From an uncultured Lachnospiraceae bacterium (GTDB lineage Bacteria; Bacillota; Clostridia; Oscillospirales; CAG-272), in the NCBI GenBank assembly GCA_964638675.1, contig CAZXAU010000010.1, positions 8,272-72,271 on the forward strand: 64,000 bases of DNA, given 5' to 3'. The notes under the pieces are model-generated. The model was not told the DNA's origin. It worked only from the letters and a program-made list of their open reading frames with translations, and did no database searches. Each line of letters begins with the position of its first letter. Within the stretch, counting starts at the first letter, position 1. The translations under genes and the position numbers were made by a program. Positions 11,945 to 58,167 of this stretch are shown piece by piece.

Positions 11945-12173
11945 TTTTACCGCCAGCACTTTCCTTCAGTTTTATTTACTTTTTTATTTGTTTCTTTATT
12001 AACACTTTTCATTGATTCTGATATACTTACAATATAATTTGTACCGTTTATGATCAAGTTAATACTATACATAATTATCATATCATATTTTTCTTAAAAA
12101 ATCAATTATTTTTTTGAAAAATATTCAAATACAGTGTAAATAAACCATATAGAATTATTCGACGCAAATTCAA

Positions 12174-27300: not shown

Positions 27301-28031
27301 ACGGAGTAGAATCCGCAACAAGAAGCGATTGCCCAACAAATGATTTTGAAGTAACAGCAATATTTGAAGAGCTTCCGAAATACACTATCACATATAAGGC
27401 AACACAGGGCGGCTCAATAAGCGGAAAGACAACGCAGACTGTATACACCGAAAACAAAGGCTCATCTGTCAAAGCTGTACCGGCATCCGGATACAAATTC
27501 GTGTCATGGAGTGACGGTGAGACATCATCCGAAAGATCAGACCTTGTGACAGATGAAGATATCACATTAACGGCGATTTTTGAAAAACTGAATGTATATA
27601 CAGCAAACTACTCAGCCGGCGAACACGGAAAAGTAAGCGGCACACTTAAACAGACGGCTTATGAAGGCGGAACGTTTAAGACCGTAACGGCAATTGCAGA
27701 TGACGGCTTTGAATTTGCATCATGGAGCGACGGAGTCACAACGGCCGAGAGAACAGATGAGGCAAACAGCGATATAAACGTTGAAGCGATATTCGTTGCT
27801 AAAAAGGTATGTACTCTTTATTACAGTGCTTCCACAGGCGGAAAGATCATCGGAAAGAGCACGCAGAACATTCTGATAGGAAACTCTTCAGAGGAGGTTA
27901 CTGCGGTGGCAGAAGAGGGATATGTATTCGCAAGATGGAGCGACGGAGTCACAACACCGACAAGAAGCGATGTTGCAAAGCAGGACACAGTTTTCTATGT
28001 AGCTATTTTTGAGCTCGCTGAGACAAAGTAA
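24321..28031 (+). CDS. Large membrane-anchored surface protein: basic N-tail, one TM helix, Ig-like (DUF5011-type) domains, a transglutaminase-like Cys-protease core, and 8 Listeria-Bacteroides repeats
   Basis: TM helix LVLITALVVISLAIVAMAIYYIV. Motifs DTKAPTG, DTIAPKV and DNFAPII. Core C...H...D pattern (TTACMMKTL...WTLVDYGDGWYHVDPF). Repeats carry GY.F..WSDG. Confidence 0.85.
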   Translation: MPENTKKSDKPENNNAVKNDQVRKRKPSAENKRQAAVQTDRIELKAPGGKHIKASHNGYGRSSHTVAKNKKKKMSTSSLVLITALVVISLAIVAMAIYYIVNTSGTPSGVLYSYTCEAGEHVSASVYALSSEHTARFPDDLDIDSLTHKVGNHKISVIIDEITYDVTLTVKDTKAPTGKAHNLVCMLGSSIKAGEMVSDIDDETQVSISFKNPPNLSVEGRQSVRIKLTDEGGNTTYIDDCFVFVASSMKVKSWEMGTPFPSPTDLCNGKADIIFQNVNDLADIKVPGTYSIPMRITVSGVSDTYYLPLAFVDTIAPKVTVKEGNVYDISDPFPAASNWISACDDATDVKFYYAYDYSITSADVYYLDIIAEDAAGNKTPVRVKITALDGKVDNFAPIINVKNEIIINVGSELVLENYVTIYDDKDGDIPLSDSERVKIEYPADLNLYLPGEYTIIITATDSSNRSSVTPVTVKVVHKDISKETSDALADEIISSVIKLNMTTEQKIQAIFDRIARNENMDFTGKSDKSNEVWREFYSGFTLSYGDSYTTACMMKTLLDKLGIDSIIIHNLTSTTYWTLVDYGDGWYHVDPFLHSSPWLVDGSYKDTLKLTDLQMSQFNEFNNEAHPGSNSYLFNSSIYPATPIYSEETGEFIYLPYRVIYLCTDGGYIEGETDQKVSHMQNCSTVIAQPRSGYRFVSWSDGVTTPERTDIIKSNLTVTAQFVESQGLFKTYVLTYEAGSGGKISGEAFQTVDAGYYGSEIVAIADNGYKFIGWSDGIMTPARKDLAKKDMTYTANFAPLSGNIYTLEYRVTDGGHIEGENFQVLDLGKGGTSVTAVPDEGYVFNMWSDGLMTPTRKDPYGSDLTVTARFVKEDSELLELQYKAQEGGTIEGLSYQRIESGSYGDTVRAVASRGYYFVAWSDGLAEVERRDLPSESKEISAIFAKLNEYRILYMISGNGGYINGDSTQYIYDGESTSEVTAVPLFGFIFKGWSDGVESATRSDCPTNDFEVTAIFEELPKYTITYKATQGGSISGKTTQTVYTENKGSSVKAVPASGYKFVSWSDGETSSERSDLVTDEDITLTAIFEKLNVYTANYSAGEHGKVSGTLKQTAYEGGTFKTVTAIADDGFEFASWSDGVTTAERTDEANSDINVEAIFVAKKVCTLYYSASTGGKIIGKSTQNILIGNSSEEVTAVAEEGYVFARWSDGVTTPTRSDVAKQDTVFYVAIFELAETK
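26289..28028 (+). repeat. Eight tandem coding repeats of about 72 aa (Flg_new / Listeria-Bacteroides repeat type)
   Basis: Each unit follows Y.(I/L).Y...(G)G.I.G...Q.V..G....V.A.P..GY.F..WSDG.....R.D......(L/I).V.A.F. Confidence 0.85.
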
Positions 28032-33668: not shown

Positions 33669-35786
33669 TTATTTATTCTCGCTGTATTCCTTTTTTCTAA
33701 TCTCATCAAGTGCTCTGTCAGTGCTTGTAATTAAAGAAGCCGCTTTATCAAGTCCCTCAAAGTCGATCGATTCAATGATTTTTTCTTTTGTCGCTTCATC
33801 TAAGTTGATCTTCTTTTTATCGGCGATCCTCGCTATTTCACGCTCTGCAATTTTTATTTTTGCTTCATCCGACAGCGGTATGAATTCAATCAGGCTCTGG
33901 ACTGATGAATATATCGCGTTAGGTACTTTATCCCTGATTTTTTCGTTTGCTCTGTTTCCCGTGAACTCATCGTACCCGAAAAAACCAATCGTTTTTTTAT
34001 TCTTGTCTTCAATATCTATTGTAAAAATAACAGCCGCATTCCCGAAATCCACTCTTTTTCCGCTCGAATCATTCAAGAAGCCGTTGCTCAGCATTGATGA
34101 TATAAGTCCGCACACGTCGCCGTGTGCCATACTTATATTTTTTATCAGAATTAGTGTTTTGGGAACAGACTTCAGCTTTTTTGTCAGTATTCCGCCTTCG
34201 TTGTGTCCTATATATCCCGGCGCACTTCCTATCAGCTTTGATATCGAGCTGCTTTCCGTATATTCAGACATATCAAGAATAAGCATTGAATTTGCATACA
34301 TAACCCGTGACAAGATTTCTGCAAGATAACTTTTTCCGCTTCCGGAGGGACCGAAAAAAATAAGGCTTTTCGGAGCGTTTTCAGCGCTGCTATCGTCTGT
34401 CAGGATTTCTATTGTCTTGGATACTGCTTCATCCTGACCGAAAATATCCTTTTTAATTTCAAATTCTTCTCTTTCTCTTCTGCTCTCATCGCTCTCAAGC
34501 ATGATTCCGGTCATCAGGAAAAGTGTTTGTCTGATATCGCTTTCATCTATACTGCTCTTACCCTTGATTACCGCACCAGATGATGCTTCGTCAAGCAAAT
34601 CGATAGCCTTATCAGGCAGAAATCTCCCGTTTATATATCTTGAAGAGAGCAATGCTGCACTTTTTATTGCATCGTCGCCTATTGTTATCCGGTGGTACTC
34701 TTCATATTTTTTTCTGAGTCCCTCAAGTATCGTTACCGTTTCGCTCTCACTCGGCTCTCTTATATCCACCTTCTGAAATCTTCGCTCAAGTGCCGCATCC
34801 TTTTCTATATGCTTCATATACTCATCGTATGTCGTAGCACCTATAAGACGGATCTTTCCCCTTGCCAGCATGGGTTTGATAATGTTTGCGGCATCCATTG
34901 CCCCCTCAGCACTGCCGGCTCCGATAATCGTATGAATTTCGTCTATAAAAAGTATGATATCGCTGTCTTTCTCTGCTTCCTCAAGTGCTTTTTTCAAACG
35001 TTCCTCAAACTCACCGCGATATTTCGCCCCTGCGATCATCAGTGACAGATCCAACGCATATATTCGTTTATTACTCAGATTCTCGGGAACATTCCCGTTT
35101 TTGATCTCTAGTGCAAGCCCTTCTGCAATAGCTGTTTTTCCGACTCCCGGTTCTCCTACGAGACATGGATTGTTTTTTATTCTCCTGCACAGTATCCTTA
35201 CGACCCTCTCTATTTCCCTTTCTCTGCCGATTACCGGGTCTATTGATCCGTTCCCGGCAAGCAGTGAAAGATCTCTTCCGTATTTTGCAAGTATATCCGC
35301 TCTTTTTGTCTGTTTCTCATTTATTTTATCGTTTTTATCAAAATATGATATATCGCCGGAAAACAGTGATATCTTCAGATTTGATACACTGCATTCCGAT
35401 TTTTCGATGATTTTTGCCGCCACGCAGTTTTCGCAATTCAGCAGAGAATATGCAAGGTGCTCACTCCCGATCTTTTTGTGCCCCATCTGTCGCGATATAA
35501 CCGATGCATTTTTAATTATCTCTTTAAGCTTCATCGAAATCTCGGTCGGATATGCAATGATCACATTCTCCCTTTTTTCAAATTTTTCGACGATCTCTTT
35601 AACCGTCCTATAAGATATACCCGACCTTTCAAACACCTTTTTAGTATGAGTTCCATCTGTTTTAAGAAGTCCCAGGAGCAAATGCTCGCTTCCTATATAT
35701 GACGATTGACACTCGTCTGCCTCTGTTTGTGCCTCCATCAGCACCTGTTTTGCTTTGTCAGTAAGGTTTTCGACCGATTTATCCAT
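33669..35786 (-). CDS. ClpC/ClpB-like AAA+ ATPase paralog (705 aa) lacking the M-domain, with a degenerate D2 Walker B
   Basis: Two Clp_N repeats. D1 is intact (GEPGVGKTAIAEGLA, ILFIDEIHT). D2 has Walker A GPSGSGKS, but the position of LLDEIEKAH reads LIKNISMAH. An IGF-like loop (KKTIGFFG) is retained. Confidence 0.85.
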   Translation of the reverse strand: MDKSVENLTDKAKQVLMEAQTEADECQSSYIGSEHLLLGLLKTDGTHTKKVFERSGISYRTVKEIVEKFEKRENVIIAYPTEISMKLKEIIKNASVISRQMGHKKIGSEHLAYSLLNCENCVAAKIIEKSECSVSNLKISLFSGDISYFDKNDKINEKQTKRADILAKYGRDLSLLAGNGSIDPVIGREREIERVVRILCRRIKNNPCLVGEPGVGKTAIAEGLALEIKNGNVPENLSNKRIYALDLSLMIAGAKYRGEFEERLKKALEEAEKDSDIILFIDEIHTIIGAGSAEGAMDAANIIKPMLARGKIRLIGATTYDEYMKHIEKDAALERRFQKVDIREPSESETVTILEGLRKKYEEYHRITIGDDAIKSAALLSSRYINGRFLPDKAIDLLDEASSGAVIKGKSSIDESDIRQTLFLMTGIMLESDESRREREEFEIKKDIFGQDEAVSKTIEILTDDSSAENAPKSLIFFGPSGSGKSYLAEILSRVMYANSMLILDMSEYTESSSISKLIGSAPGYIGHNEGGILTKKLKSVPKTLILIKNISMAHGDVCGLISSMLSNGFLNDSSGKRVDFGNAAVIFTIDIEDKNKKTIGFFGYDEFTGNRANEKIRDKVPNAIYSSVQSLIEFIPLSDEAKIKIAEREIARIADKKKINLDEATKEKIIESIDFEGLDKAASLITSTDRALDEIRKKEYSENK

Positions 35787-35945
35787 ATCTTTAACTATGG
35801 CTTTCGCATTGCGAAAGCTTCCTTTCTTGCGGAATTGGGGTTGGTTTTGCGGAGCAAGATCGAGCCGATTCTACTCAAATCGGCTCGTTTCAGTGGCGAA
35901 AGCCACAAAACTCTGTTTGAAAGATTTATCTTTCAAACTTATCCA
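35787..35945 (-). promoter_or_regulatory. Conserved structured 5' leader element, copy 1 of 3 (unclassified)
   Basis: Shares the 24-nt palindrome (35915-35938) and both flanking blocks with the copies at 46829-46971 and 49067-49208. It ends at ATG 35786. Confidence 0.6.
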
Positions 35946-35985
35946 CTTGCCTTATTATTCTCGTATAATTATCTCTTGTGATATT

Positions 35986-44205: not shown

Positions 44206-45246
44206 TTATTTTTTCTTTTTACCTTCGGTAAATTTACCATCGGTAAATGACGAAAAAACACTCTTTTTTGTACCGACAGCCGCAATAAGCTTTTCTATTA
44301 TATCATCGGGGCTGAGTCTTTCGCTGATTGCAGTAAAACTCAGCTTGATACGGTGACGAAGCACCGGCAGAGCAAGAGAATTGATATCATCGAACGAAAG
44401 ATTATACCGTCCGTCCATCAGTGCACGAACTTTTCCTGCGGTAATAAGTGCCTGTGCGGCACGGGGGCTTGCTCCGAATCTTATATAATTTTTTGTAACA
44501 TCGGGAGAGGAAGAAAGCTCGGGATGGGTAGCTGAAACCAATCTTACGACATAATCGAGTACATCATCCATAACAAGTATTTCTTTGGCAGATTCACGCA
44601 TACGCAACAGATCTTCTCCGGAAAGAATTGCCTGTGCAGTTTCCTGCATAGTTTTCTGCGTCATATTGACTATCGCCTTAAGCTCGTTATTGCCGGGGAA
44701 TGTAACAATAAGCTTGAACATAAAACGGTCGGTCTGTGCCTCGGGCAGTGAATATGTACCGTCCTGCTCAATTGGGTTCTGTGTTGCAAGGACAAAAAAG
44801 GGTTCTTCAAGTCTGTATGTGGCACCGCTTGCCGTCACTGTATGCTCCTGCATCGCCTCAAGAAGTGCCGACTGTGTTTTCGGAGTTGCTCTGTTGATCT
44901 CATCGGCGAGAATAATGTTGCTGAAGATAGGACCTTTGCGGAAAAATATCTTATTTCCCCCGTTTATATCCTTCTCTATGACATTTGTACCTGTGACATC
45001 GGCAGGCATCAGGTCGGGCGTAAACTGTATACGTGAGAACGGAAGCTCAAATACCCTCCCGAGAGAGCGTACAAGTCTTGTTTTTCCGACACCGGGAACG
45101 CCTTCCAAAAGCACATTTCCCCCCGCAATCAGGGCAATCACCGTATTTTTTACAGTCTCCTCCTGACCTACGACATCCTTCGCTATTTCATTAATTATCA
45201 AATCGCATTTTTCACTGAAAAAAGCTATATCCTTTTCGTTAACCAT
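44206..45246 (-). CDS. MoxR-family AAA+ ATPase
   Basis: Contains LLEGVPGVGKTRL (Walker A), ILADEINR (Walker B) and the C-terminal lid. Family-typical length, plus a Lys-rich tail. Confidence 0.92.
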   Translation of the reverse strand: MVNEKDIAFFSEKCDLIINEIAKDVVGQEETVKNTVIALIAGGNVLLEGVPGVGKTRLVRSLGRVFELPFSRIQFTPDLMPADVTGTNVIEKDINGGNKIFFRKGPIFSNIILADEINRATPKTQSALLEAMQEHTVTASGATYRLEEPFFVLATQNPIEQDGTYSLPEAQTDRFMFKLIVTFPGNNELKAIVNMTQKTMQETAQAILSGEDLLRMRESAKEILVMDDVLDYVVRLVSATHPELSSSPDVTKNYIRFGASPRAAQALITAGKVRALMDGRYNLSFDDINSLALPVLRHRIKLSFTAISERLSPDDIIEKLIAAVGTKKSVFSSFTDGKFTEGKKKK

Positions 45247-45319
45247 TTCTTATACTAAACCTGCTGACTTTTTGAAGTGCAGTATTTCCCTTAAATTATT
45301 TATAAAACATTTTTATATT

Positions 45320-46828
45320 TCAATATTTCAATATTGCTTCAAAATATGCATCCATAAGCTGTCTGTCGGCGTCTGAAAGAAGTCCGTTTTTCAATGCTCT
45401 GCAATATTCATCATAATAAAGTGAAATGACATCGCCGTATTTTACGCTTCCCGAGATCGGGTCATATATCTGTTCGAGCATTTTTCCGGGAATAAGCTCG
45501 CCGCCATCACCGCCGCCGGCAGTATCATCGCCGCCTTCTCCAGGTTTATCTCCCTCACCTTCGCCGGGTTTGTCGCCTTCGCCTTCTCCGGGTTTATCTC
45601 CTTCACCGTCTCCCGGCTTTTCGCCTTCACCTTCACCCTCGCCTGTCTGATTGGCACCGCCAGGCTCCTTCTCGCCGTCCTCGCCCTCCTGGGGCTCACC
45701 TTCGCCTTCTCCCGGCTCGGGCTTTTTTTCGCCTTCGAGCAGTTCATCTTTTGCATCGGAAAGAAGTTTATCAAGCTTTTTCGCTTCATCTTCAAGCTTT
45801 TTCTGATCGTCAAGTGCCTTGTTTATATCTTCTTCGGCTTTATCAAGTGCTTCGTCTGACGGCACTTTATCAAGCTTCTCGGCAAGGTATGCGAGAGCAT
45901 CGTGCAGTTCGTCACCTTCTTTGGTTTCGGACTCGGCAAGCGAATCTCTGATATTGTCTGCAAGCTCCTTTTTCAGATCCGGATCTTCACCCAGCTTGTT
46001 TTTCAGGTCATCTATAGCTTCGCTTACCTTGTTTTTATCGCCTTTACTTATCGCTTCCCCGAGCTTTGAAGTGAGCTCGTGATTCTGAAGCGATTGACCG
46101 ATCTCATCCTTTGTTATGGCATCGTCCATGATCTTATCGATCTCATTCCGTGTATGAGAAATGCTTGATATATTATCGAGCTTTGAATCTGATTTTTTAA
46201 GTTCGCTCTCAAGCTTATCGATCTGATCGTTCAGCTTTTTGTCAAGCTCCTCTTTATTATCAGATTTTTCTACCTCCTTGCGGAGGTCTTCTATAAGATC
46301 TTTTATAACCTCCTGCCTGAAAATTTCTTCTTCTCTGTCTTCGGCATTTGACGGTACATCAAACAGATCATACGGAATGAAAAGAGTGCCGAGTGCAAGT
46401 ATTACGCAAAGCATACAAGAAAGTATTTCTTTTGTTTTTATATGGCTGACAAGAGACCTTCCGGAAAGCTCCTTCATCCGCTTCAGTGTGTCATTTCTCT
46501 GTATGTCTGCCATCTGTGAGGTATCATCCTTATATTCGTACATCGTACCGACACGTTCCTGCATTCCAAGCTCATCGATCCGCCTTGCTATACGTTTTTT
46601 TGTCGGGTAAAAAGCAAGTGCAAACACGACGATCGATGATATGACAAATACAGCTGAACAAAGCAGTACCGTAATCACAGCCGGCAATTCATTACCAACC
46701 AAATGATAAACAAGCGAAAATAATAAAAGAAAGAGAAACGCTGACGAAATTCCGAAAAGAAAGGCACGTATAACTCCTTCTGCTGTCAATCTTATCTTAA
46801 ATTTACGAAATAATTTGCTGTAATCCAT
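45320..46828 (-). CDS. Membrane protein with a long coiled-coil and an acidic GEGEGDKP-repeat region, unknown function
   Basis: Three N-terminal TM helices, a K/E/D-rich coiled-coil region and tandem octapeptide repeats. It is the first gene of the MoxR operon. The start is ATG 46828 (or 46840). Confidence 0.6.
   Translation of the reverse strand: MDYSKLFRKFKIRLTAEGVIRAFLFGISSAFLFLLLFSLVYHLVGNELPAVITVLLCSAVFVISSIVVFALAFYPTKKRIARRIDELGMQERVGTMYEYKDDTSQMADIQRNDTLKRMKELSGRSLVSHIKTKEILSCMLCVILALGTLFIPYDLFDVPSNAEDREEEIFRQEVIKDLIEDLRKEVEKSDNKEELDKKLNDQIDKLESELKKSDSKLDNISSISHTRNEIDKIMDDAITKDEIGQSLQNHELTSKLGEAISKGDKNKVSEAIDDLKNKLGEDPDLKKELADNIRDSLAESETKEGDELHDALAYLAEKLDKVPSDEALDKAEEDINKALDDQKKLEDEAKKLDKLLSDAKDELLEGEKKPEPGEGEGEPQEGEDGEKEPGGANQTGEGEGEGEKPGDGEGDKPGEGEGDKPGEGEGDKPGEGGDDTAGGGDGGELIPGKMLEQIYDPISGSVKYGDVISLYYDEYCRALKNGLLSDADRQLMDAYFEAILKY
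45540..45643 (-). repeat. Imperfect 24-nt tandem repeat, about 4.3 units (coding, GEGEGDKP)
   Basis: Plus-strand units CCRGGYTTDTCBCCYTCRCCKTCK occur at 45540, 45564, 45588 and 45612. Confidence 0.8.
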
Positions 46829-46971
46829 TTTTATAACCATAGCTTTCGCTTTACGAAAGCTTCCTTTCTTTCGGAATTGGGGCTGGTTTTGCGAGGCAAA
46901 ATCGCCGCCGCGACGGTGACGAAAGCCACAAAACGCCGTTTGAAAGATTTATCTTTCAAACTTATCTCCTT
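46829..46971 (-). promoter_or_regulatory. Conserved structured 5' leader element, copy 2 of 3 (unclassified)
   Basis: The palindrome is at 46938-46961. A 55-nt block (46830-46884) is identical to copy 3. Confidence 0.6.
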
Positions 46972-47108
46972 GAATCAGGTGATTTTGTTTTTGTTATGTA
47001 CCCGATATGATTGCTTTTGCATTGCATGTAGAAATGATGCCGTCAAGTAATAAAATGATATTTCTCAAATGTGATATAATTCTTAAAGTAACAAACCACT
47101 ACTATATT

Positions 47109-47137
47109 ATTATACCGTAAAATCAACTATTTGTCAA
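47109..47137 (-). promoter_or_regulatory. Consensus sigma-A promoter of the MoxR/vWA operon
   Basis: On the minus strand, TTGACA-17 nt-TATAAT, an exact consensus match. Confidence 0.7.
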
Positions 47138-47202
47138 GCAAATTTGTAAAAAAACACAATGATGCAAAAAGAATACAGAACAAAAAAACTACATTTAAAC
47201 GC

Positions 47203-47240
47203 AAAAATCCCCCTCAAGTCATTGACTGAGAGAGATTTTT
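47203..47240 (-). terminator. Imperfect hairpin terminator after the pilin gene
   Basis: ATCCCCCTCAAGTC-att-GACTGAGAGAGAT contains bulges and is flanked by A5 and T5. Confidence 0.45.
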
Positions 47241-47273
47241 GTAATTATAAGATGTAAGAAAGTGAACTAATTA

Positions 47274-47639
47274 TTATTCCTTTACAACTTTTCCACTTTC
47301 ATTAACAGTGTAACCTGCAGGAACCTTAACGGCTTCTTTAACAGCAGATGATGTACTACCGGATTTAATTTCGTTGCCGTCAGCATCCTTCAAAGTAACA
47401 GTAACTGTTCCGTCTTCACCAACAGCATATTCAACAGTCTCAACCGTCTTAGCCGGATTTTCAACTATAGCATCAAGCTGAAGAGAATGAGCAAGTTCAG
47501 CAACCTGTGACTCAGCTACGCCGGCATTAGCCGTTTCAATATATCCCGAATATACCGGGATTGCTACTGCTGCGATAACAGCCATGATCGCAATAACAAC
47601 GATCAATTCAATAAGTGAAAAACCTTTGTTTGACTTCAT
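47274..47639 (-). CDS. Type IV pilin / pseudopilin (prepilin-type N-terminal cleavage/methylation domain)
   Basis: MKSNKG|FSLIELIVVIAIMAVIAAVAIP has Gly at -1, Phe at +1 and Glu at +5. RBS GAAGGAGA. Length 121 aa. Confidence 0.85.
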   Translation of the reverse strand: MKSNKGFSLIELIVVIAIMAVIAAVAIPVYSGYIETANAGVAESQVAELAHSLQLDAIVENPAKTVETVEYAVGEDGTVTVTLKDADGNEIKSGSTSSAVKEAVKVPAGYTVNESGKVVKE

Positions 47640-47777
47640 TTTTGAAATCTCCTTCATTTTTAATAAATTTATCCCAAGGCACAAGCCACAGAGAACATCC
47701 TTTATCACACTTTGATCTTCAATACTCTCCGGAATCGCAGATATCCCACGTAAAACAAATCAAAATACGATATGGTT

Positions 47778-47806
47778 AATATAACACAAAGGCATTAAAA
47801 AGTCAA
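47778..47806 (-). promoter_or_regulatory. Putative sigma-A promoter of the pilin gene
   Basis: On the minus strand, TTGACT-17 nt-TATATT with a TGT extension. This predicts a 5' UTR of about 130 nt. Confidence 0.6.
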
Positions 47807-47896
47807 TATCAAATTTCATCAATTGTAATTTTTTTTTCACGAATAAAATGCTTTACGATACACTGCGTAAACGAATTATCAGAAAGCTTTTACGGT

Positions 47897-49066
47897 TCAT
47901 TCCCCTAGCGACGGTTTAATTATATTATCAATAATAAACTCTGCGGTGGAGTCGATCTCGTTGAACGCTACTGTTTTCGGAAGCGTGACAAAAAATGCAC
48001 TTTTTGTCTTTTCTATAAGCTTATCGGTATATACAATACAGCCGTCCCGGATATCCTCAATTCCGTCCAGAGCTATCGATTCCCTGTTTTTCGCCGACAT
48101 TTGCTCAAGCGTGAAATGGCTTTCATCAATATAAGCCGACATTTTTTCTCCGTCTATTATGACCGGGTATCCGCCTATATTTCCGAATACACCCGGTGAG
48201 TGGATAAGCTCCCTGCTTTCATTATCAAGCGCAGAGAGTATACTCATGATAATATTAAAATTACTCGATGCATTCATCATGTTCCGTTTCTGATCGCTCG
48301 GCATTGCAATAGAGCAGAGACTGAATATCCTTTCCTGATCTATTTGGAGCGTCTTACCGCTATATGATAGATATAAAAGCTGACTTACGCCCTCAGTATG
48401 ACCTTCCTTACTTATCACAACATCATGAAAATGTGAGCTTGCAAGGCTGACCGAGACATTCCAATAATCGGATATGCCGATCTCCTTAGCCACAGCCATT
48501 TTTATACGTGGGATCAAATGATTCAAGTTTCCGCTTCCGAAATCGGGACATGTAAGACCGGCAGATTTTAACCACGGAAGTGTTGCATCCGAATATGATG
48601 TATTTATTACGATAGCATTGCATCCAGATTTTTCGTATGCAAGCATGATATTTCTGATATACCTGACAGACAACGGTGTCCATATTCCGTATGCACGCAG
48701 ATTCTTCCATGATATCGAACCGTATTTCAGTCCTGCATATACACGACTTGTGTTCACAATGATATCGGGCGAGCACCTCTCAAGCAGATCACTGATCGAC
48801 TCAACGCTTTCAAGGTCTGTATTTCCTTCAACAATGACACGGCTGCGGCAGATTCCTCTTATTGTTGCGGCAACAGTTGCGATATTTACATCCTGTTGCA
48901 TCTTTTCGGTATTTCTGCCTGCAACAGTAATTTCAATACGCTCATCACCTACACTCAGCAGATAATCAAGAAGATAATTACCTACACTACCGAGCCCGAG
49001 TATCATTATTTTAATTTTGCCGCACTTCAATTTTTCTTTTATTGCTTTCAGTTTATTCTCAAGCAT
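47897..49066 (-). CDS. NAD(P)-binding Rossmann-fold protein, possibly saccharopine-dehydrogenase-like, unknown function
   Basis: N-terminal KIMILGLGSVGNYLLDYL (GxGxxG). No further family motif recognised. The start is ATG 49066 (or 49078). Confidence 0.55.
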   Translation of the reverse strand: MLENKLKAIKEKLKCGKIKIMILGLGSVGNYLLDYLLSVGDERIEITVAGRNTEKMQQDVNIATVAATIRGICRSRVIVEGNTDLESVESISDLLERCSPDIIVNTSRVYAGLKYGSISWKNLRAYGIWTPLSVRYIRNIMLAYEKSGCNAIVINTSYSDATLPWLKSAGLTCPDFGSGNLNHLIPRIKMAVAKEIGISDYWNVSVSLASSHFHDVVISKEGHTEGVSQLLYLSYSGKTLQIDQERIFSLCSIAMPSDQKRNMMNASSNFNIIMSILSALDNESRELIHSPGVFGNIGGYPVIIDGEKMSAYIDESHFTLEQMSAKNRESIALDGIEDIRDGCIVYTDKLIEKTKSAFFVTLPKTVAFNEIDSTAEFIIDNIIKPSLGE

Positions 49067-49208
49067 GTTTATAACCATAGCTTTCGCTTTACGAAAGCTT
49101 CCTTTCTTTCGGAATTGGGGCTCGATTCTCCTCGAATCGGCTCTTTTCGGTGACGAAAGCCACAAAACGCCGTTTGAAAGATTTATCTTTCAAACTTTAT
49201 CTCCCTCA
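49067..49208 (-). promoter_or_regulatory. Conserved structured leader element, copy 3 of 3 (intra-operonic, unclassified)
   Basis: The palindrome is at 49172-49195. The element begins at the TGA stop (49206-49208) of the upstream gene. Confidence 0.6.
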
Positions 49209-49955
49209 GAATTCAGCTCTCCTGAAATCGGCAAGCGTATTGCAGTTTATCCATTCCTTCATGAATACAAAATTTATATTCCCTTTACGCTTCTGACTGC
49301 CGAAATAGCTGTTTATCAGCACAAGATTTGTTCTCTGGCTTCCTGTGTCACCAAGCTCATCCGACAACTCGAGCAAAAGACCGCAATCGGAAAACTTCCA
49401 TATCTGTGCCGAGTTATATATCGCCTTGAAGGGTGTTTTTATCTCAAGACAGCCGTGCAGAACGTCATATATATAATTTATCCTGTTGCTTTCATCAATA
49501 TAAAATGCAACCGATCTGTCAGCTGAGATCGTTTCAGAGTTTACACTGACAACATCTCCGTCAATCGATTTTATTTTCAAAAAGCTCTCGCTGTCAAAAA
49601 AGAGATCACCTTCGGCGAAGAGAATTTCATCGTATTTATTGCCGTCATTCAATGCCGAAAGCCCGACATATAAACTGTAGCCCGAACCGTATTCACGGTA
49701 GAACTTATTTTCAACAAGAATAATTTTGGCACGAAGCTCATCGGAGACAGTACTCTCAATATATCTTTTGAGCCTATCGAACATAAAACCGCCAACAACC
49801 ACTAGTCTGTCATAGTCACCTGCAAGAGTCAGGAGTCTGTAGAGCAATGTTTTATGTGGATCTCCGTCATTGTATATACATTTGACCTGCGGCTGATCAA
49901 AATCCTTTGAAAACCTTGACGCCACGCCGGCAACAGTTGTTATAAAAGCCTTCAT
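49206..49955 (-). CDS. Nucleotidyltransferase (LicC/MobA-like NTP-transferase fold)
   Basis: N-terminal TTVAGVASRF (a GxGxR-like variant), then VVVGGF...ILVENKFYREYGSGYSL, then EGDLFF. Confidence 0.65.
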   Translation of the reverse strand: MKAFITTVAGVASRFSKDFDQPQVKCIYNDGDPHKTLLYRLLTLAGDYDRLVVVGGFMFDRLKRYIESTVSDELRAKIILVENKFYREYGSGYSLYVGLSALNDGNKYDEILFAEGDLFFDSESFLKIKSIDGDVVSVNSETISADRSVAFYIDESNRINYIYDVLHGCLEIKTPFKAIYNSAQIWKFSDCGLLLELSDELGDTGSQRTNLVLINSYFGSQKRKGNINFVFMKEWINCNTLADFRRAEF

Positions 49956-50959
49956 TAGTTGTCTACATTCTCCTTCCTGCAGGCAACTATCATTTCAATC
50001 CCCTCACTCAGCGAGATCTGCGGACGCCATGACGTTCTGCTGCGTATCTTTTCTGTGTTCAGAACACGCCTTTCTGGGTCGGATGCACGATAACCTTCAA
50101 AAACTATTTTCGGCTCTTCGATTCCGAGCTTTTCCGAGCAGAGATATACAAGATCGATGATTGAGATCTCCTCATCTGTCGCAACATTGTATACCGTTCC
50201 GTCAAGAGCATCGGGCGAATCTATGAGTGCAAGAACAGATGCACAGCTGTCTATATTGTGCAGAAAAGTCCTCTTGTTCTTTCTCGAATTCTCAAGCAGT
50301 GTAACCCCCTTGTCCTTTATCAGTCCGTTTATTATATGCGGAAGAATATGCTTTGCAAAGCGTTCGTTCTTGCTGTATACATTTGCAAAGCGGATAGAGC
50401 ATCCCTTGATCTTCTTGTTGTCAACAGCGTCCTTCATAAAGAATTCTGTCATGAGCTTGCCGACGGCATAGCTTGTACGCTGACTGTGTTCGGCGTTGGC
50501 AAGCATCAGATAGTCGCTCTCGCAGACGCCGCCTTCCTTGAAGGATTGCATTGAGTATACTTCGGATGTCGAACAGTTTATGAATGTATCGGCATTGTTC
50601 TCTATTGCCTGATCGAGAAAGCTTTTCATGCCAAGAACATTCGTTTCAAAGGTACTGTTTACCTGATAGAAATACTCGGTATGCACGACAGCGGCACAGT
50701 TTATATAGATCAGGGAGTCATACTTTTCCTTCTTAACCTTTACAAGTAATGAGATCTTATTCATATGCTCGGCATTATTCAGGTCATATTCAAAGAAATT
50801 CATCATCGGATGGTCTGCAATATCGGCGATCGTATCTATTCCCGAGCAAAAGAAATTGTCAAAGCCGATGATCTCCCCCTTTTCCTGCCTGATTATCTGT
50901 CTTGCAAGCTCGTTCCCGGTCATTCCGGTCACACCACTTATCACATATAAGTTTTTCAT
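49955..50959 (-). CDS. NAD-dependent epimerase/dehydratase (extended SDR)
   Basis: Contains SGVTGMTGNEL (GxxGxxG) and YAVGK (YxxxK). Confidence 0.85.
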   Translation of the reverse strand: MKNLYVISGVTGMTGNELARQIIRQEKGEIIGFDNFFCSGIDTIADIADHPMMNFFEYDLNNAEHMNKISLLVKVKKEKYDSLIYINCAAVVHTEYFYQVNSTFETNVLGMKSFLDQAIENNADTFINCSTSEVYSMQSFKEGGVCESDYLMLANAEHSQRTSYAVGKLMTEFFMKDAVDNKKIKGCSIRFANVYSKNERFAKHILPHIINGLIKDKGVTLLENSRKNKRTFLHNIDSCASVLALIDSPDALDGTVYNVATDEEISIIDLVYLCSEKLGIEEPKIVFEGYRASDPERRVLNTEKIRSRTSWRPQISLSEGIEMIVACRKENVDN

Positions 50960-50978
50960 ATTAAATCACTTTCTTTTT

Positions 50979-51713
50979 TTATATTCCGTATTTGAGTCTG
51001 ATACGATAAAAGTCGTCGATCTTATCGTTGTACAGGCTCATTTCATATTCTATATCATAGCTGACACGGTTCAGAGAAATGCCGTTCTCAAAATCAAGAA
51101 TTGCATACCCTGCCTTTGGGTCATGATTTCTCGGCTGTCCGACAGAACCGGGATTGATGAATGTTGTTTTCTTTTTGTTCCGCATGATCGGATCGTCACA
51201 GCCGTAAAAAATATCGAATGCGTGAGGTATATGGCTGTGACCCGATAAAACATAGTCATATTCCGAATACGCCTTTTTTTCCGTCAGGTCGGATGCAGGA
51301 GATATCGATTTCCAATAACAGTCGTCAATCGAACCGTGAATAGCCAGAATTTTTTTACCGTCAAGTGTAAATTCAGCCTTCCCGCTTTTGCTTTCAAATG
51401 ACATGAGGGTGTCTATCGTTTCCTTCGTCAGGCATGAGCGTGTATATCCGGCAGACTGAACCCCACGTGCCGATGAAAATCTGCTGAAATTGCCATTGAA
51501 AATCGCATCCTCATGATTTCCCCAGAGTCGGCAGACATACGGCAGCTCAAGCGAGCTAATGAGACCGACGACCTCGTTCGACCTCATGCCGTAATCTATG
51601 CAATCGCCCAGAAGTGCAACGGCATCCGGTTTATATTTTTCGTTTGCATCAGCAAAAACCGCCTCAAGTGCACTCAGATTTCCGTGTATATCGGATATGA
51701 TCAATAATTTCAT
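50979..51713 (-). CDS. Metallophosphoesterase (YfcE/MJ0936-like)
   Basis: Contains ISDIHGN, GDCIDYG, GNHE and GHSHIPH. Confidence 0.8.
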   Translation of the reverse strand: MKLLIISDIHGNLSALEAVFADANEKYKPDAVALLGDCIDYGMRSNEVVGLISSLELPYVCRLWGNHEDAIFNGNFSRFSSARGVQSAGYTRSCLTKETIDTLMSFESKSGKAEFTLDGKKILAIHGSIDDCYWKSISPASDLTEKKAYSEYDYVLSGHSHIPHAFDIFYGCDDPIMRNKKKTTFINPGSVGQPRNHDPKAGYAILDFENGISLNRVSYDIEYEMSLYNDKIDDFYRIRLKYGI

Positions 51714-51786
51714 CTTTTTATTTTTCCCGATATCCCGTAGATTTTACGGTTTCCTTTACATAATCAACTTTATAATTCTGCCGGAT

Positions 51787-51815
51787 ATTATAGCAGATTT
51801 TATTTACTTTGTCAA
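51787..51815 (-). promoter_or_regulatory. Consensus sigma-A promoter of the phosphoesterase-epimerase-nucleotidyltransferase operon
   Basis: On the minus strand, TTGACA-17 nt-TATAAT, an exact consensus match. Confidence 0.7.
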
Positions 51816-51941
51816 GCGTATCATATCATCTCTTTCGGCAATAAATTATCATATCCTTTCATTTGATGGTATATGAAATTACATATTGATGATAGCCCAA
51901 AACAAAAGATTTTGCAAGAGCTTTTTCGTATAACAGAATAC

Positions 51942-51970
51942 TTGACATTTAGATTGAATTGTGATATTAT
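51942..51970 (+). promoter_or_regulatory. Putative sigma-A promoter of the nfnAB-like genes
   Basis: TTGACA-17 nt-TATTAT preceded by TGA. Confidence 0.6.
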
Positions 51971-52047
51971 ATTATGTCGATTGATATTAATTTACATAAA
52001 GATGATTTACGCATATCCTGTATTGATTGAAAGGAATCCTTAATGTC

Positions 52048-52890
52048 ATGTTTGAAATAGTCAAAAAGGAAATACTTAACCCCACTGTGACGAAAATAGT
52101 TGTTTCGGCACCTTTTGTTGCAAAGAAAGCCAAAGCAGGGCAGTTTGTCATAGTAAGACCGAATGCAGATTCTGAAAGAATTCCGCTTACTGTTGCCGAT
52201 TACGACCGTGAAGGCGGTACTGTATCGGTTATATATCAGATAGTCGGAGGAACGACTCTTGAACTGAATATGAAAAACGAGGGTGAGTGTCTGGCAGATT
52301 TTGTGGGGCCTCTCGGAAATCCCACATCTACCGAAGGATTCAGAAAGGTTGCCGTTGTCGGCGGAGGAGTCGGAACTGCAATTGCCCTTCCGGTTGCCAA
52401 GGCACTTCACGAAGCAGGCACGCAGGTGCATTCGATAGTCGGTTTCCGCAATGCTGACCTTGTCATTCTCCGTGATGAATTTGAGAATATCAGCGATAAA
52501 TATATATTGATGAGCGATGACGGAAGTGTCGGCGAAAAGGGACTTGTCACCGATGCACTGAAAAAGCTTATTGAATCGGGCGAAGAATATGACGAGGTCA
52601 TAGCCATAGGTCCTGTTATAATGATGAAATTCGTCTGTAAGCTCACTAAGGAATACAACATAAAAACAGTAGTTTCAATGAATCCGATCATGATAGACGG
52701 CACGGGTATGTGCGGCGGATGCCGTTTGAGCGTCGGCGGAAAGACCCGCTTTGCCTGTATTGACGGTCCTGAATTTGACGGGCACGAGATCGATTTTGAC
52801 GAAGCCATGAAGCGTGGCGGACAGTACCGTGATTGGGAAAGACACAAGTACAGCGAAAACTGTAATCTCTTCAAAAAGGAGGGCGAATGA
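52048..52890 (+). CDS. Ferredoxin-NADP+ reductase-like FAD/NAD-binding subunit with a C-terminal 2Fe-2S motif (NfnA / GltD-partner type)
   Basis: Contains RPFTVADY-like RIPLTVADYD, GGGVGTAIALP, and the Cys cluster GMCGGCRLSVGGKTRFACIDGPEF. Confidence 0.85.
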   Translation: MFEIVKKEILNPTVTKIVVSAPFVAKKAKAGQFVIVRPNADSERIPLTVADYDREGGTVSVIYQIVGGTTLELNMKNEGECLADFVGPLGNPTSTEGFRKVAVVGGGVGTAIALPVAKALHEAGTQVHSIVGFRNADLVILRDEFENISDKYILMSDDGSVGEKGLVTDALKKLIESGEEYDEVIAIGPVIMMKFVCKLTKEYNIKTVVSMNPIMIDGTGMCGGCRLSVGGKTRFACIDGPEFDGHEIDFDEAMKRGGQYRDWERHKYSENCNLFKKEGE

Positions 52891-57548: not shown

Positions 57549-57759
57549 ATGCCATCCCCTTCAGACAAAATAAAGCTGTCGATCTTCACTTCTGTGAAAA
57601 AACGACAGCTTCAACTATCAATTCATAGGTCAAAATATTATGTAATGCTCTCATCATCTTTGCTGATATTGCTTCAGCAATATTTCAAATCAGCTTCTGC
57701 CGATACATAGGTGCAAAGAATAAACGAAATTCATAAGATATCATATCATATTTTTTCTC

Positions 57760-58167
57760 TTATTTCAAGAGCTTTTTTATTTTTTCTATACAATCATTTA
57801 TAAGCAGTGTTGTATTGACATCCGACAGCCCGGCAATATAGTTATCGCAAAGGTTCATGGGTATGAGTATACGAACCGCATTGCTCTGTGAAATTGCAAG
57901 CGCCATTTTTGGGGTGATCTCACCGTACAGCGAATCTGCTATCACTATGCCCACAGGGCCTGTGATAATGTCAGCGCTCCTGCATGAGACAATGACCGCA
58001 TTTTCGCCTGTTGCGGCGTGATCTGCTCCCGATTTCAGCATTGCCTGCGTTGCAAGTGCGTTTGTTCCTACGGCAATCAGATCAATCTCGGGAATTTCTT
58101 TTTTTATTCTCTCGATAATACGGCATCCGACACCGCCGCCCTGACCGTCAACTACAAGTATTTTCAT
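57760..58167 (-). CDS. DUF3842-like small protein
   Basis: MKILVVDGQGGGVGCRIIERIK matches my memory of the DUF3842 N-terminus. Function unknown. Confidence 0.55.
   Translation of the reverse strand: MKILVVDGQGGGVGCRIIERIKKEIPEIDLIAVGTNALATQAMLKSGADHAATGENAVIVSCRSADIITGPVGIVIADSLYGEITPKMALAISQSNAVRILIPMNLCDNYIAGLSDVNTTLLINDCIEKIKKLLK

What the first reader, a model, noticed from the sequence alone, without database searches (positions are those of the whole stretch)
49067..49208. Copy 3 of the leader is intra-operonic and begins at the stop codon of the upstream gene
Seen: the element starts at the TGA of the nucleotidyltransferase gene (tGAGGGAGAUAAAGUUUG...), which leaves no room for a promoter. 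It must therefore be transcribed from the consensus promoter at 51787-51815 as part of a four-gene mRNA. So the element can act inside a transcript and not only at a 5' end. The invariant palindrome hairpin (11 bp, A/U-rich) followed by GGCGUUUUG resembles a weak intrinsic terminator or attenuator placed before the last gene. Inference: possible roles are conditional read-through, an RNase processing or stability site that uncouples expression of the distal gene, or a processive-antitermination signal. By position it is analogous to the EAR element inside Bacillales eps operons.
Basis: partly seen in the sequence, partly recalled or inferred. Interest (0 to 1): 0.6.

Follow-up and report, generated by a model that had tools for sequence, protein, structure and literature searches.

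The report
Repeat inserted at an operon junction
The "leader" between these two genes is one of about 92 copies of a folded, apparently mobile ~135-base repeat that sits between a gene's old ribosome-binding site and its start codon and carries a replacement site, so it is probably not a switch or terminator specific to this operon.

Summary
On the minus strand the element fills 49195-49067. It starts 10 nt after the TGA (49208-49206) of the DUF6564 gene and ends at the true ATG (49066) of the saccharopine-dehydrogenase-like gene, leaving no room for a promoter.

This position is not special. The genome (2.33 Mb) holds 92 copies, and 35 abut an upstream co-directional gene. Examples are fabZ-accC-accD, tmk and rsmD.

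Homologous operons elsewhere have the same gene order with a plain 13-24 nt junction (stop, SD, ATG). Two congeneric genomes have no copy, and 8 of 8 orthologues there have ordinary SD-ATG sites. Other genera carry near-identical copies at different genes, and copies also occur in phage contigs.

So copy 3 is an insertion between the ancestral SD (GGGAG, 49205-49201) and the ATG. It brings its own SD (AGAAAGGA) followed by a hairpin.

The hairpins show compensatory changes. The "U-tract" after the first hairpin is one strand of a covarying long-range helix, not a terminator tail. There is no Rfam match, conserved ORF, target duplication or link to Y1 transposases.

The attenuator and EAR-like readings are not supported.

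The parts
49206..49955 (-). Upstream gene (DUF6564 family, 249 aa). Its stop TGA is 49208-49206.
   Evidence: Pfam PF20202, E 4e-81; sequence. The exact protein lies in the same context in two other assemblies.
49201..49207 (-). Ancestral Shine-Dalgarno GAGGGAG of the downstream gene. It overlaps the stop codon and is now 135 nt from the ATG.
   Evidence: Homologous operons have stop + GGAGG + 6-7 nt + ATG at this junction. SD-like flanks precede nearly all copies. Orthologues in congeners keep SD + 6-9 nt + ATG without the element.
49172..49195 (-). P1: a 10-bp A/U-rich hairpin with loop UAAA (GUUUGAAAGAUAAAUCUUUCAAAC), the 5' module of the repeat.
   Evidence: -9.3 kcal/mol. All 8 scored pairs show compensatory changes across genera. 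Exact matches in at least 108 stretches of other genomes and 8 viral contigs.
49159..49165 (-). 5' strand of long-range helix P2 (UUGUGGC). It includes the U-run that was read as a terminator tail.
   Evidence: Pairs with 49121-49115. Cross-taxon partner test: 6.36 bp versus 5.63 +/- 0.11 with shuffled partners.
49122..49140 (-). Variable internal hairpin module (CGAUUC GAGGA GAAUCG). In copy 3 it replaces the UUUUGC...GCAAAA hairpin seen in most copies.
   Evidence: Alignments; fold.
49115..49121 (-). 3' strand of helix P2 (GCCCCAA).
49100..49107 (-). The element's own Shine-Dalgarno, AGAAAGGA. Its GGAA can pair with UUCC at 49114-49111 (weak helix P3).
   Evidence: Conserved in all copies. 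In variants without P4 it lies 11-12 nt before the ATG. Complementarity to the 16S rRNA 3' end is from general knowledge of Firmicutes; no 16S 3' end is in the assembly.
49079..49099 (-). P4: an 8-9 bp hairpin inserted between the element's SD and the AUGGU tail.
   Evidence: -10.3 kcal/mol. Compensatory changes within and across genomes. Absent in 5 copies here and in most copies in other taxa.
49067..49078 (-). Conserved 3' tail AUGGUUAUAAAC (consensus AUGGUCAUAAAU), which ends at the gene's start codon.
47897..49066 (-). Downstream gene: saccharopine-dehydrogenase-like NAD(P)-binding protein, 389 aa. True start ATG is 49066-49064.
   Evidence: Pfam PF03435. Homologues 60-69% identical start at the same Met.
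49955..51713 (-). The two upstream operon genes: metallophosphoesterase (50979-51713) and NAD-dependent epimerase/dehydratase (49955-50959).
   Evidence: Same order in L150, L151, L152/153 and L232.
51787..51815 (-). Consensus sigma-70-type promoter (TTGACA-17-TATAAT with TG), the likely start of the four-gene transcript.
   Evidence: 12/12 match; sequence. Its activity is inferred.
46826..46974 (-). Copy 2 of the same repeat. It lies inside a long 5' leader about 130 nt downstream of a 12/12 promoter (47137-47109).
35784..35951 (-). Copy 1 of the same repeat, before a ClpC-like ATPase gene.

Best explanation
Copy 3 is an insertion of a multi-copy, horizontally spreading, non-coding structured repeat into a previously tight operon junction.

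The ancestral junction read: stop, SD, 6-9 nt, ATG. The ~130-nt element now lies between that old SD (GGGAG) and the ATG. It consists of:
- a 5' hairpin, P1;
- a long-range helix, P2, enclosing exchangeable small hairpins;
- its own Shine-Dalgarno, AGAAAGGA;
- in this lineage an extra hairpin, P4;
- a conserved AUGGUYAUAAAU tail that ends at the host start codon.

The element has no promoter, so it is transcribed as part of the operon mRNA, most simply from the promoter at 51815-51787.

Translation of the distal gene is then most likely started from the element's own SD. P4 would be looped out, giving a split SD-hairpin-AUG initiation region. In this way the insertion is tolerated in front of essential genes.

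Shown here: the anatomy, copy number, register with start codons, empty sites in homologous operons and in congeners, patchy distribution across genera, and covariation of the hairpins.

Inferred: co-transcription, use of the internal SD, and mobility as a process. The mechanism of insertion is unknown.
For: Copy number and register:
- 92 copies in the 2.33-Mb genome.
- For 83 of 92, an ATG or GTG within ~40 nt after the element opens an ORF of 60 aa or more; most lie 8 nt past the conserved GGT, in the same orientation.
- In 35 of 92 the upstream co-directional stop lies within 20 nt of P1 or inside it.
- The downstream genes are unrelated housekeeping genes.

Empty sites:
- Three homologous operons (Metallophos-Epimerase-DUF6564-SDH-like) have a 13-24 nt junction with GGAGG and no element.
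- Model R1 finds 0 copies in the two same-genus genomes.
- 8 of 8 orthologues there (atpD, pyk, dnaJ, cysS, ddl, parB, rsmD and one more) have SD + 6-9 nt + ATG. For rsmD the flank GGAGAAUAAA is shared.

Distribution:
- 38 of 121 genomes of the family, in 34 of 97 genera, have a match. Near-identical copies occur in other genera.
- 6 of 7 element-bearing genes of G070 and G128 have element-free orthologues here.
- Copies occur in IMG/VR contigs in front of genes.
- Across other genomes, P1 in the sense direction is followed by an RBS module plus ORF in 88 of 105 cases, against 26 of 107 in the antisense control.

Structure:
- 95% of cells are paired, and 13 pairs show double changes against 5.7 +/- 1.2 in shuffles.
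- Across genera, 23 of 31 pairs show double changes against 10.6 +/- 1.8.

No promoter-like site lies in the element. Variants without P4 place AAGGA 11-12 nt from the ATG.
Against: - Co-transcription and the absence of processing are therefore inferred.
- No insertion machinery was found. There are no target-site duplications, no autonomous parent or solo P1 in this genome, and no association with Y1 transposases (12 genomes overlap against 11.3 expected).
- No presence/absence difference between near-identical strains was seen for copy 3. The two other assemblies of the same strain also carry it.
- The nearest element-free operons are only 66-69% identical at the protein level.
- The old SD is still recognisable at nearly all copies. 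This could mean it is still used.
- Strong sequence conservation of P1 and of the 3' module across genera could reflect a host function rather than recent spread.
- The cross-genus alignment was fitted to the model, which favours its structure.
Confidence: 0.72

Rival explanations
1. An RNA processing or stability punctuation site. P1, or the whole folded block, would be cut by or would block an RNase. The distal cistron would then acquire its own 5' end and half-life and be uncoupled from the upstream genes. This could be a side effect of the inserted repeat rather than an alternative to insertion.
For: Stable conserved hairpins lie exactly between cistrons. 35 of 92 copies sit at operon junctions. 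Other interspersed repeats such as REP and Correia elements are known to affect mRNA decay (own knowledge).
Against: No transcript ends could be examined. Operons with the same gene order function without the element. Many copies lie in 5' leaders with no upstream cistron.
Confidence: 0.15
2. A global cis-regulatory leader. A shared RNA structure would respond to one signal, such as a protein, a small molecule or temperature, and control translation of about 90 genes by hiding or freeing the SD through the UUCC:GGAA helix P3 or the alternative helices GUUUUG / GAUUUUGC : GCAAAAC.
For: The structure is conserved and covaries. The SD is partly paired in predicted folds. Two mutually exclusive helices share the CAAAAC strand. 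Conservation extends across genera.
Against: - The regulon would be an arbitrary set of housekeeping genes.
- That set differs between genomes.
- Congeners lack the element altogether.
- The middle modules are freely inserted, swapped or deleted, down to P1 plus the SD module alone. This does not fit a ligand pocket.
- No Rfam match.
Confidence: 0.1
3. A weak intrinsic terminator or attenuator before the last gene: P1 followed by GGCGUUUUG would stop part of the transcription.
For: The simple scan lists P1 plus its tail as terminator-like. P1 is a 10-bp hairpin of -9.3 kcal/mol.
Against: - Four non-U bases separate the stem from a run of only four U.
- The U-run pairs with a downstream strand that covaries with it.
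- The U-run is absent in minimal elements.
- The same hairpin precedes essential genes that have no promoter of their own, such as accC, accD, tmk and rsmD.
- The stem is A/U-rich with 3 G-C pairs.
Confidence: 0.05
4. A MIRU-like bridging ORF. The old SD would drive initiation at the UUG/CUG in P1, and a short ORF would run through the element and stop next to the gene's ATG, so the distal gene is translated by termination-reinitiation.
For: In consensus-length copies a 42-49 codon frame runs from the UUG in P1 to a UAA 2 nt before the ATG. The old SD lies 6-8 nt before that UUG.
Against: - Only 30 of 75 copies keep this arrangement, close to the one third expected from frame alone.
- 32 of 75 copies have CUG instead of UUG.
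- 13 copies lack the stop.
- The peptide sequence shifts frame between copies.
- In copy 3 the frame ends in the P4 loop, 21 nt before the ATG.
- The UUG is buried in P1.
Confidence: 0.04
5. A DNA-level site: the perfect palindrome P1 would be an operator for a dimeric DNA-binding protein or a recombinase site, acting on double-stranded DNA.
For: P1 is a 24-nt near-perfect palindrome, identical in many genera.
Against: Both arms change together to keep pairing: GUUUG/CAAAC, GUCUG/CAGAC, GCGUG/CACGC, GAUUG/CAAUC. All 8 scored pairs show compensatory changes. This is what a hairpin in a single strand would give, not a fixed half-site. It always comes with the oriented 3' module next to a start codon. 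A hairpin in single-stranded DNA used during insertion remains possible.
Confidence: 0.04

Closest known systems
Mycobacterial interspersed repetitive units (MIRUs), as summarised in PMC12548453
   Same: A short interspersed repeat that appears mobile and lies at start codons, often between genes of an operon. [quoted passage not shown]
   Different: MIRUs keep expression through an internal ORF coupled to the gene with a -4 nt overlap. Here no ORF is conserved, and the element carries its own SD plus covarying hairpins. The host clade is different (Oscillospirales and their phages), there are no tandem arrays, and there is no sequence similarity.
Split translation-initiation regions of phage T4 genes 38 and 25 (SD and AUG separated by a hairpin; own knowledge)
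   Same: The SD (AGAAAGGA) is separated from the start codon by a stable hairpin (P4). If looped out, it leaves about the same spacing as in copies without P4.
   Different: Those are single, fixed phage genes, not a repeated and spreading cassette. The function of P4 here is untested.
Start-associated sequences (SAS/ESAS) of Cluster K mycobacteriophages (PMC3203893)
   Same: A repeated asymmetric motif containing an SD core, in one orientation a few bases before the start codons of many unrelated genes. It is sometimes extended by an inverted repeat, and its function is unknown.
   Different: SAS is 13 bp and replaces the RBS rather than being added downstream of an older one. For ESAS the authors found little support for RNA hairpins, whereas here the hairpins covary. 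The clade and sequence differ.
BOX, REP/BIME, ERIC and Correia-type bacterial interspersed repeats / MITEs (BOX and RUP: PMC3049150; the rest from own knowledge)
   Same: Tens to hundreds of non-coding, hairpin-rich, modular intergenic copies that are co-transcribed with neighbouring genes. Their distribution between related genomes is patchy.
   Different: Those repeats are not in fixed register with start codons, occur in both orientations and often lie after genes. MITEs have terminal inverted repeats and target duplications; neither is found here. No link to Y1/RAYT transposases.
EAR (eps-associated RNA) of Bacillales eps operons
   Same: Only the position: a structured element between genes inside an operon.
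   Different: EAR is a single-copy element confined to eps operons that promotes processive antitermination. This element has 92 copies before unrelated genes, matches no Rfam model, and is absent from homologous operons.

Membership tests
EAR / epsC RNA (Rfam family; name recalled from memory) | Match to the family covariance model | tested here: not met
   cmscan of the window at gathering thresholds found only two tRNAs. A scan of 48900-49350 at E <= 10 gave only chance-level hits to unrelated families.
EAR / epsC RNA | Confined to exopolysaccharide (eps) operons, one copy per operon | tested here: not met
   92 copies lie before cysS, pyk, dnaJ, atpD, tmk, fab/acc genes and others.
Intrinsic (Rho-independent) terminator | G+C-rich stem directly followed by a U-tract that is free to form the RNA:DNA hybrid | tested here: not met
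   The stem has 3 G-C pairs of 10. Four non-U bases come before a run of 4 U. The U-run is one strand of the covarying helix P2 and is absent in minimal elements.
Intrinsic (Rho-independent) terminator | 3' ends of transcripts at the site | not testable with these tools
MIRU-type start-codon-associated repeat | Interspersed repeat located at start codons / intercistronic, in one orientation | tested here: met
   For 83 of 92, an ATG or GTG within ~40 nt after the element opens an ORF of 60 aa or more; 35 of 92 are at operon junctions; the orientation is specific.
MIRU-type start-codon-associated repeat | Internal ORF translationally coupled (-4 overlap) to the downstream gene | tested here: not met
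   Frames shift between copies. Only 30 of 75 have a P1-initiated frame ending near the ATG, and none has the ATGA-type overlap as a rule.
MITE (miniature inverted-repeat transposable element) | Terminal inverted repeats and target-site duplication | tested here: not met
   The two ends differ (P1 against the SD module). The flanks show no copy-specific repeat beyond base composition.
REP/RAYT or IS200/IS605-derived palindromic element | Co-occurrence with a Y1 (PF01797) transposase | tested here: not met
   Among 121 genomes, 38 carry the element and 36 have a PF01797 match. 12 have both, against 11.3 expected. The high-copy genomes G070, G088, G101 and G113 have none, and the own genome has only a fragment with a stop.
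Riboswitch / dedicated cis-regulatory leader | Conserved ligand-binding core, and a functionally coherent set of regulated genes conserved between relatives | tested here: not met
   The core modules are exchangeable or deletable. The downstream genes are unrelated and differ between genomes. Congeners lack the element.
Structured RNA (or single-stranded DNA) element in general | Base pairs maintained by compensatory changes | tested here: met
   95% paired; 13 pairs with double changes against 5.7 +/- 1.2; 23 of 31 pairs against 10.6 +/- 1.8. Caveat: the copies are related to one another, and alignment A3 was fitted to the model.

The most novel reading that the evidence does not exclude
The element belongs to an undescribed class of non-autonomous mobile DNA that specifically targets the few bases between a Shine-Dalgarno sequence and its start codon. 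It would keep translation going by design, because it carries a replacement SD. It would spread horizontally among Oscillospirales, partly on phages, using an integration mechanism that is still unknown. That mechanism might read the P1 hairpin in single-stranded nucleic acid, or use the RBS-like sequences at both ends as microhomology.
Probability: 0.45. Interest if true: 0.8.

Novelty: new variant of a known kind. Interest (0 to 1): 0.62.

Why it matters
If this reading is right, about 4% of the genes of this bacterium, including essential genes inside conserved operons, are translated from a ribosome-binding site supplied by a spreading repeat rather than from their own.

That has three consequences:
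- It would be a second, mechanistically different example, after MIRUs, of a repeat that occupies start codons without silencing genes.
- It gives a natural, portable "SD plus hairpin" cassette that could be tested as an insulator for translation initiation.
- It raises a concrete open question: what recognises the SD-to-ATG spacer as a target?

In practice, the element misleads gene callers, which start these genes at the ATG inside the repeat and so add MVIN to the N-terminus. It breaks assemblies exactly at P1. It can also be mistaken for a riboswitch, a leader or a terminator when only a few copies are seen.

Tried and rejected
1. Known RNA family: there was no Rfam match at gathering thresholds, nor at E <= 10 on the locus.

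2. Leader peptide or uORF: the consensus is open in two to three frames, but the frames shift between copies and 13 copies lack the stop. The bridging ORF from the UUG in P1 is kept in only 30 of 75 copies, and not in copy 3.

3. Target-site duplication: the bases before P1 and those after GGUCA are no more alike within a copy than between copies.

4. Autonomous parent: there is no P1 outside the 92 copies in this genome.

5. Y1 transposase (PF01797) as driver: no association.

6. Alternative pairing of GUGGCUUUCG with the 3' half of P4: complementary on paper, but P4 variants covary within P4 and not with the 5' segment, and position 142 varies freely.

7. Promoter inside the element: none at 9/12 or better.

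9. Strain polymorphism of copy 3: the two other assemblies holding the exact DUF6564 protein are the same strain and also carry the element. The FabZ look-up found nothing.

10. The copy-3 operon in relatives by whole-genome search: absent from 25 related genomes. Homologous operons were therefore taken from metagenome contigs.

11. Literature search for the P1 sequence: no paper. A keyword search found no description of such an element in Clostridia.

Full report
**What is at the coordinates**

All features lie on the minus strand.
- The DUF6564-family gene (49955-49206; Pfam E 4e-81) ends with TGA at 49208-49206.
- GGGAG follows at 49205-49201, then AUAAA.
- Next comes a 10-bp hairpin with loop UAAA, here called P1 (49195-49172).
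- A block of further hairpins follows, then AGAAAGGA (49107-49100).
- A second strong hairpin, P4, lies at 49099-49079, followed by the tail AUGGUUAUAAAC (49078-49067).
- The ATG at 49066-49064 follows directly.

Homologues of the downstream saccharopine-dehydrogenase-like protein start MLE(E/D)KL at exactly this ATG. So this is the true start, not the in-frame ATG at 49078 that a gene caller used for the 393-aa version.

The P1 sequence occurs three times in the window, against none in 100 shuffles. The three copies align over about 135 nt. The copy-3 region folds better than all 200 shuffles (z = -3.7). None of the 28 promoter-like matches in 45000-52500 falls inside the element. A 12/12 promoter sits at 51815-51787.

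- P1 is 10 bp, not 11.
- It is invariant only among the three window copies.
- The GGGAG after the stop codon is flank, not repeat.
- An 11/12 promoter-like match lies inside the upstream gene (49597-49568), so an internal promoter further upstream cannot be excluded.

**The element is one of 92 copies**

A search of the window's own genome (2.33 Mb, 32 contigs, 41.7% G+C) gave 92 copies by iterated nhmmer, nearly all full length. For 83 of 92, an ATG or GTG within ~40 nt after the element opens an ORF of 60 aa or more. Most copies end in ...AAGGAAGCUUUCGCAAUGCGAAAGCCAUGGUCAUAAAU followed directly by that ATG or GTG.

In 74 of 91 copies the upstream neighbour is co-directional. In 35 of 92 a long upstream frame stops within 20 nt before P1, or at the UGA inside P1.

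Named examples:
- fabZ to accC: 1 nt between the stop and P1.
- accC to accD: 2 nt.
- The gene before tmk: 0 nt.
- The gene before rsmD: 1 nt.
- Other downstream genes are cysS, pyk, dnaJ, atpD and parB/noc.

So the intra-operon position that made copy 3 look special is the commonest single arrangement. The genes served have nothing in common.

**Copy 3 is an insertion into a tight operon junction**

The four-gene unit is metallophosphoesterase, epimerase/dehydratase, DUF6564 and SDH-like. It is absent from 25 related genomes. It recurs in the same order in metagenome contigs whose SDH-like proteins are 66-69% identical.

In those contigs the DUF6564/SDH junction is short. One reads UAA-UGGAGGAACGGAA-AUG (13 nt). 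Another reads UAA...GAAGGAGGGCCUGCC-AUG (24 nt). Neither has an element. In the window the same layout is interrupted: UGA-GGGAG-AUAAA-[element]-AUG.

The same holds genome-wide.
- A covariance model built from 42 copies finds no copy in the two same-genus genomes.
- A chimeric query made of N-termini retrieved 8 orthologues there (atpD, pyk, dnaJ, cysS, ddl, parB, rsmD and one unnamed gene). All 8 have SD + 6-9 nt + ATG.
- For rsmD the congeners read AAGGAGAAUAAAAA-AUG and this genome reads GGGAGAAUAAA-[element]-AUG. This places the insertion within about 2 nt of the start codon.

Purine-rich SD-like flanks precede nearly all copies here and in other genomes. Across other genomes the figure is 81 of 105 in the sense direction, against 50 of 107 in the antisense control.

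**Distribution points to horizontal spread**

- In a sample of 121 genomes of the family, 38 genomes (34 of 97 genera) have matches. Several reach the 25-match scoring cap.
- Genomes of other genera (G070, G128) carry copies scoring almost as high as this genome's own. Yet their orthologous proteins are only 35-63% identical, and 6 of 7 of their element-bearing genes have element-free orthologues here.
- The exact P1 sequence is found in at least 108 stretches of species-representative genomes. These are mostly uncultured Oscillospirales ("Clostridia", "Ruminococcus", "Oscillospiraceae" MAGs), but also Acetanaerobacterium elongatum and Harryflintia acetispora.
- It also occurs in 8 IMG/VR viral contigs, again in front of genes.
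- In those genomes the element is modular. The smallest form is P1 plus AGAAAGGAAUGGUCAUAUAU plus AUG. Most forms lack P4. The middle carries variable hairpins.
- P1 in the sense orientation is followed by an RBS module and an ORF in 88 of 105 cases, against 26 of 107 in the antisense control.

**Structure**

On 42 copies from this genome, six helices were scored: P1, the long-range helix P2, P2a, P2b, P3 and P4.
- 95% of cells form standard pairs, against 36-51% when the partners are slid.
- 13 pairs have changes on both sides, against 5.7 +/- 1.2 in shuffles (0 of 500 shuffles reach this).

On a cross-genus alignment, 23 of 31 pairs have double changes against 10.6 +/- 1.8, and all 8 scored pairs of P1 do. 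That alignment was fitted to the model, which favours it.

The sequence after P1, including the U-run, is the 5' strand of P2. In 84 distinct elements from other taxa, the 16 nt after P1 pair with the 19 nt before the SD module better than with those of other elements: 6.36 against 5.63 +/- 0.11 bp, with no shuffle reaching the observed value. Examples are GGAAGUUU/AAACUUCC and GAGUUUUGAG/CUCAAAAC.

Two helices compete for the CAAAAC strand. Whether this has a function is unknown.

**How it most likely works**

The element has no promoter and often no room for one. It must therefore be transcribed from upstream, for copy 3 most simply from 51815-51787. This is inferred.

Its AGAAAGGA matches the 3' end of Firmicute 16S rRNA. 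That rests on general knowledge, because the assembly has no 16S 3' end. In copies without P4 it lies 11-12 nt before the ATG. With P4 (-10.3 kcal/mol) looped out, the spacing is about the same. This resembles the split initiation regions of T4 genes 38 and 25 (own knowledge).

I therefore read the element as a replacement ribosome-binding cassette that makes the insertion harmless, even in front of essential genes. How it is inserted is not known.

**Readings tested and not supported**

- Terminator or attenuator: four non-U bases and only four U follow an A/U-rich stem. The U-run is base-paired. Essential promoter-less genes lie behind the same hairpin.
- EAR-like antitermination: no model match, and the element is not confined to one operon type.
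- Leader peptide or MIRU-like coupled ORF: frames are not conserved.
- MITE: no terminal inverted repeats or target duplications.
- Y1 transposase partner: no association.
- Double-stranded operator: the arms of P1 change together.

A processing or stability effect remains open.

Two other public assemblies contain the same strain (100% identity over 3284 nt). Both contigs stop at the last base of P1, as expected where an assembler meets a repeat. They show that copy 3 is present there too.

**Comparison with known systems**

The nearest described things are:
- MIRUs: apparently mobile, inserted at start codons, with expression kept by a coupled internal ORF (PMC12548453).
- The start-associated sequences of Cluster K mycobacteriophages (PMC3203893).
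- Modular interspersed repeats such as BOX (PMC3049150).

None shares sequence, structure or the "own SD behind the old SD" layout. No paper holds the P1 sequence.

Earlier notes of this scan on other copies in the same genome reach the same general reading. I had stated my own reading before seeing them. I tested its main points independently here, except the claim that strains differ in presence or absence.

**Verdict**

The proposed operon-specific regulatory roles are not supported.

Copy 3 is a well-documented filled site of an undescribed, widespread repeat that sits at start codons and carries its own ribosome-binding site.

Noticed in passing
window 49079-49110 and 46841-46872, plus strand (antisense to the element): On the antisense strand, P4 is followed by UCCUUUCUUU (the complement of the SD), and the scan lists it as terminator-like. 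Each copy might therefore stop antisense transcription running into the upstream gene.
   Followed up: no
own genome C2:164512-164580 (before dnaJ): The 3' arm and loop of P1 are repeated three times in tandem (ATTTGAAAGATAAATCTTTCAAAC AAAAGATAAATCTTTCAAAC GAAAGATAAATCTTTCAAAC) at the 5' end of one copy. This suggests slippage or repeated partial insertion at P1.
   Followed up: no
L232 and L233 (Logan assemblies of SRR9335148 and SRR13282568): Contigs of the same strain end exactly at the last base of P1, so the repeat breaks short-read assemblies. Copy numbers in fragmented MAGs are therefore probably underestimates.
   Followed up: partly
window 49064-49078; protein P0001: The gene caller behind the protein collection starts the downstream gene at the ATG inside the repeat, giving MVINMLEN... 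(393 aa). The consensus tail AUG GUC AUA AAU AUG is in frame, so many genes with this element probably carry a false MVIN N-terminal extension in databases.
   Followed up: partly
L150-L153 compared with window 47897-51713: In homologous clusters the four genes are preceded by a fused cytidylyltransferase/PEP-mutase gene and followed by glycerophosphotransferase and TPP-enzyme genes. That looks like a phosphonate-decorated glycopolymer pathway. In this window the four genes stand alone behind their own promoter, next to a glutamate-synthase-like gene on the other strand.
   Followed up: no
window 26400-27980: Six to seven tandem repeats of about 213-219 nt lie within a coding region. They share a ...WSDG... 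motif and appear to be repeated protein domains of a large surface-type protein.
   Followed up: no
window 12076-12115, 51819-51858, 57739-57778 (plus strand): A shared TATCATATCAT... motif lies next to promoters, including just upstream of the -35 box of the operon promoter at 51815. It could be a common upstream promoter element or an operator.
   Followed up: no
L196 (G128:C4) compared with own genome C1:226319-226452: This is the only case among 7 where an element-bearing gene of another genus has an element-bearing orthologue here. The two copies belong to different P1 subtypes (GUGUG... and GUUUG...), so the gene was either hit twice independently or carries an old insertion.
   Followed up: partly
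L222 (IMG/VR contig), about 830-1000: In one viral copy a second P1-like hairpin occupies the place of P4, between AAGGA and AUGGU. That junction seems to be a hot spot for acquiring hairpins.
   Followed up: no
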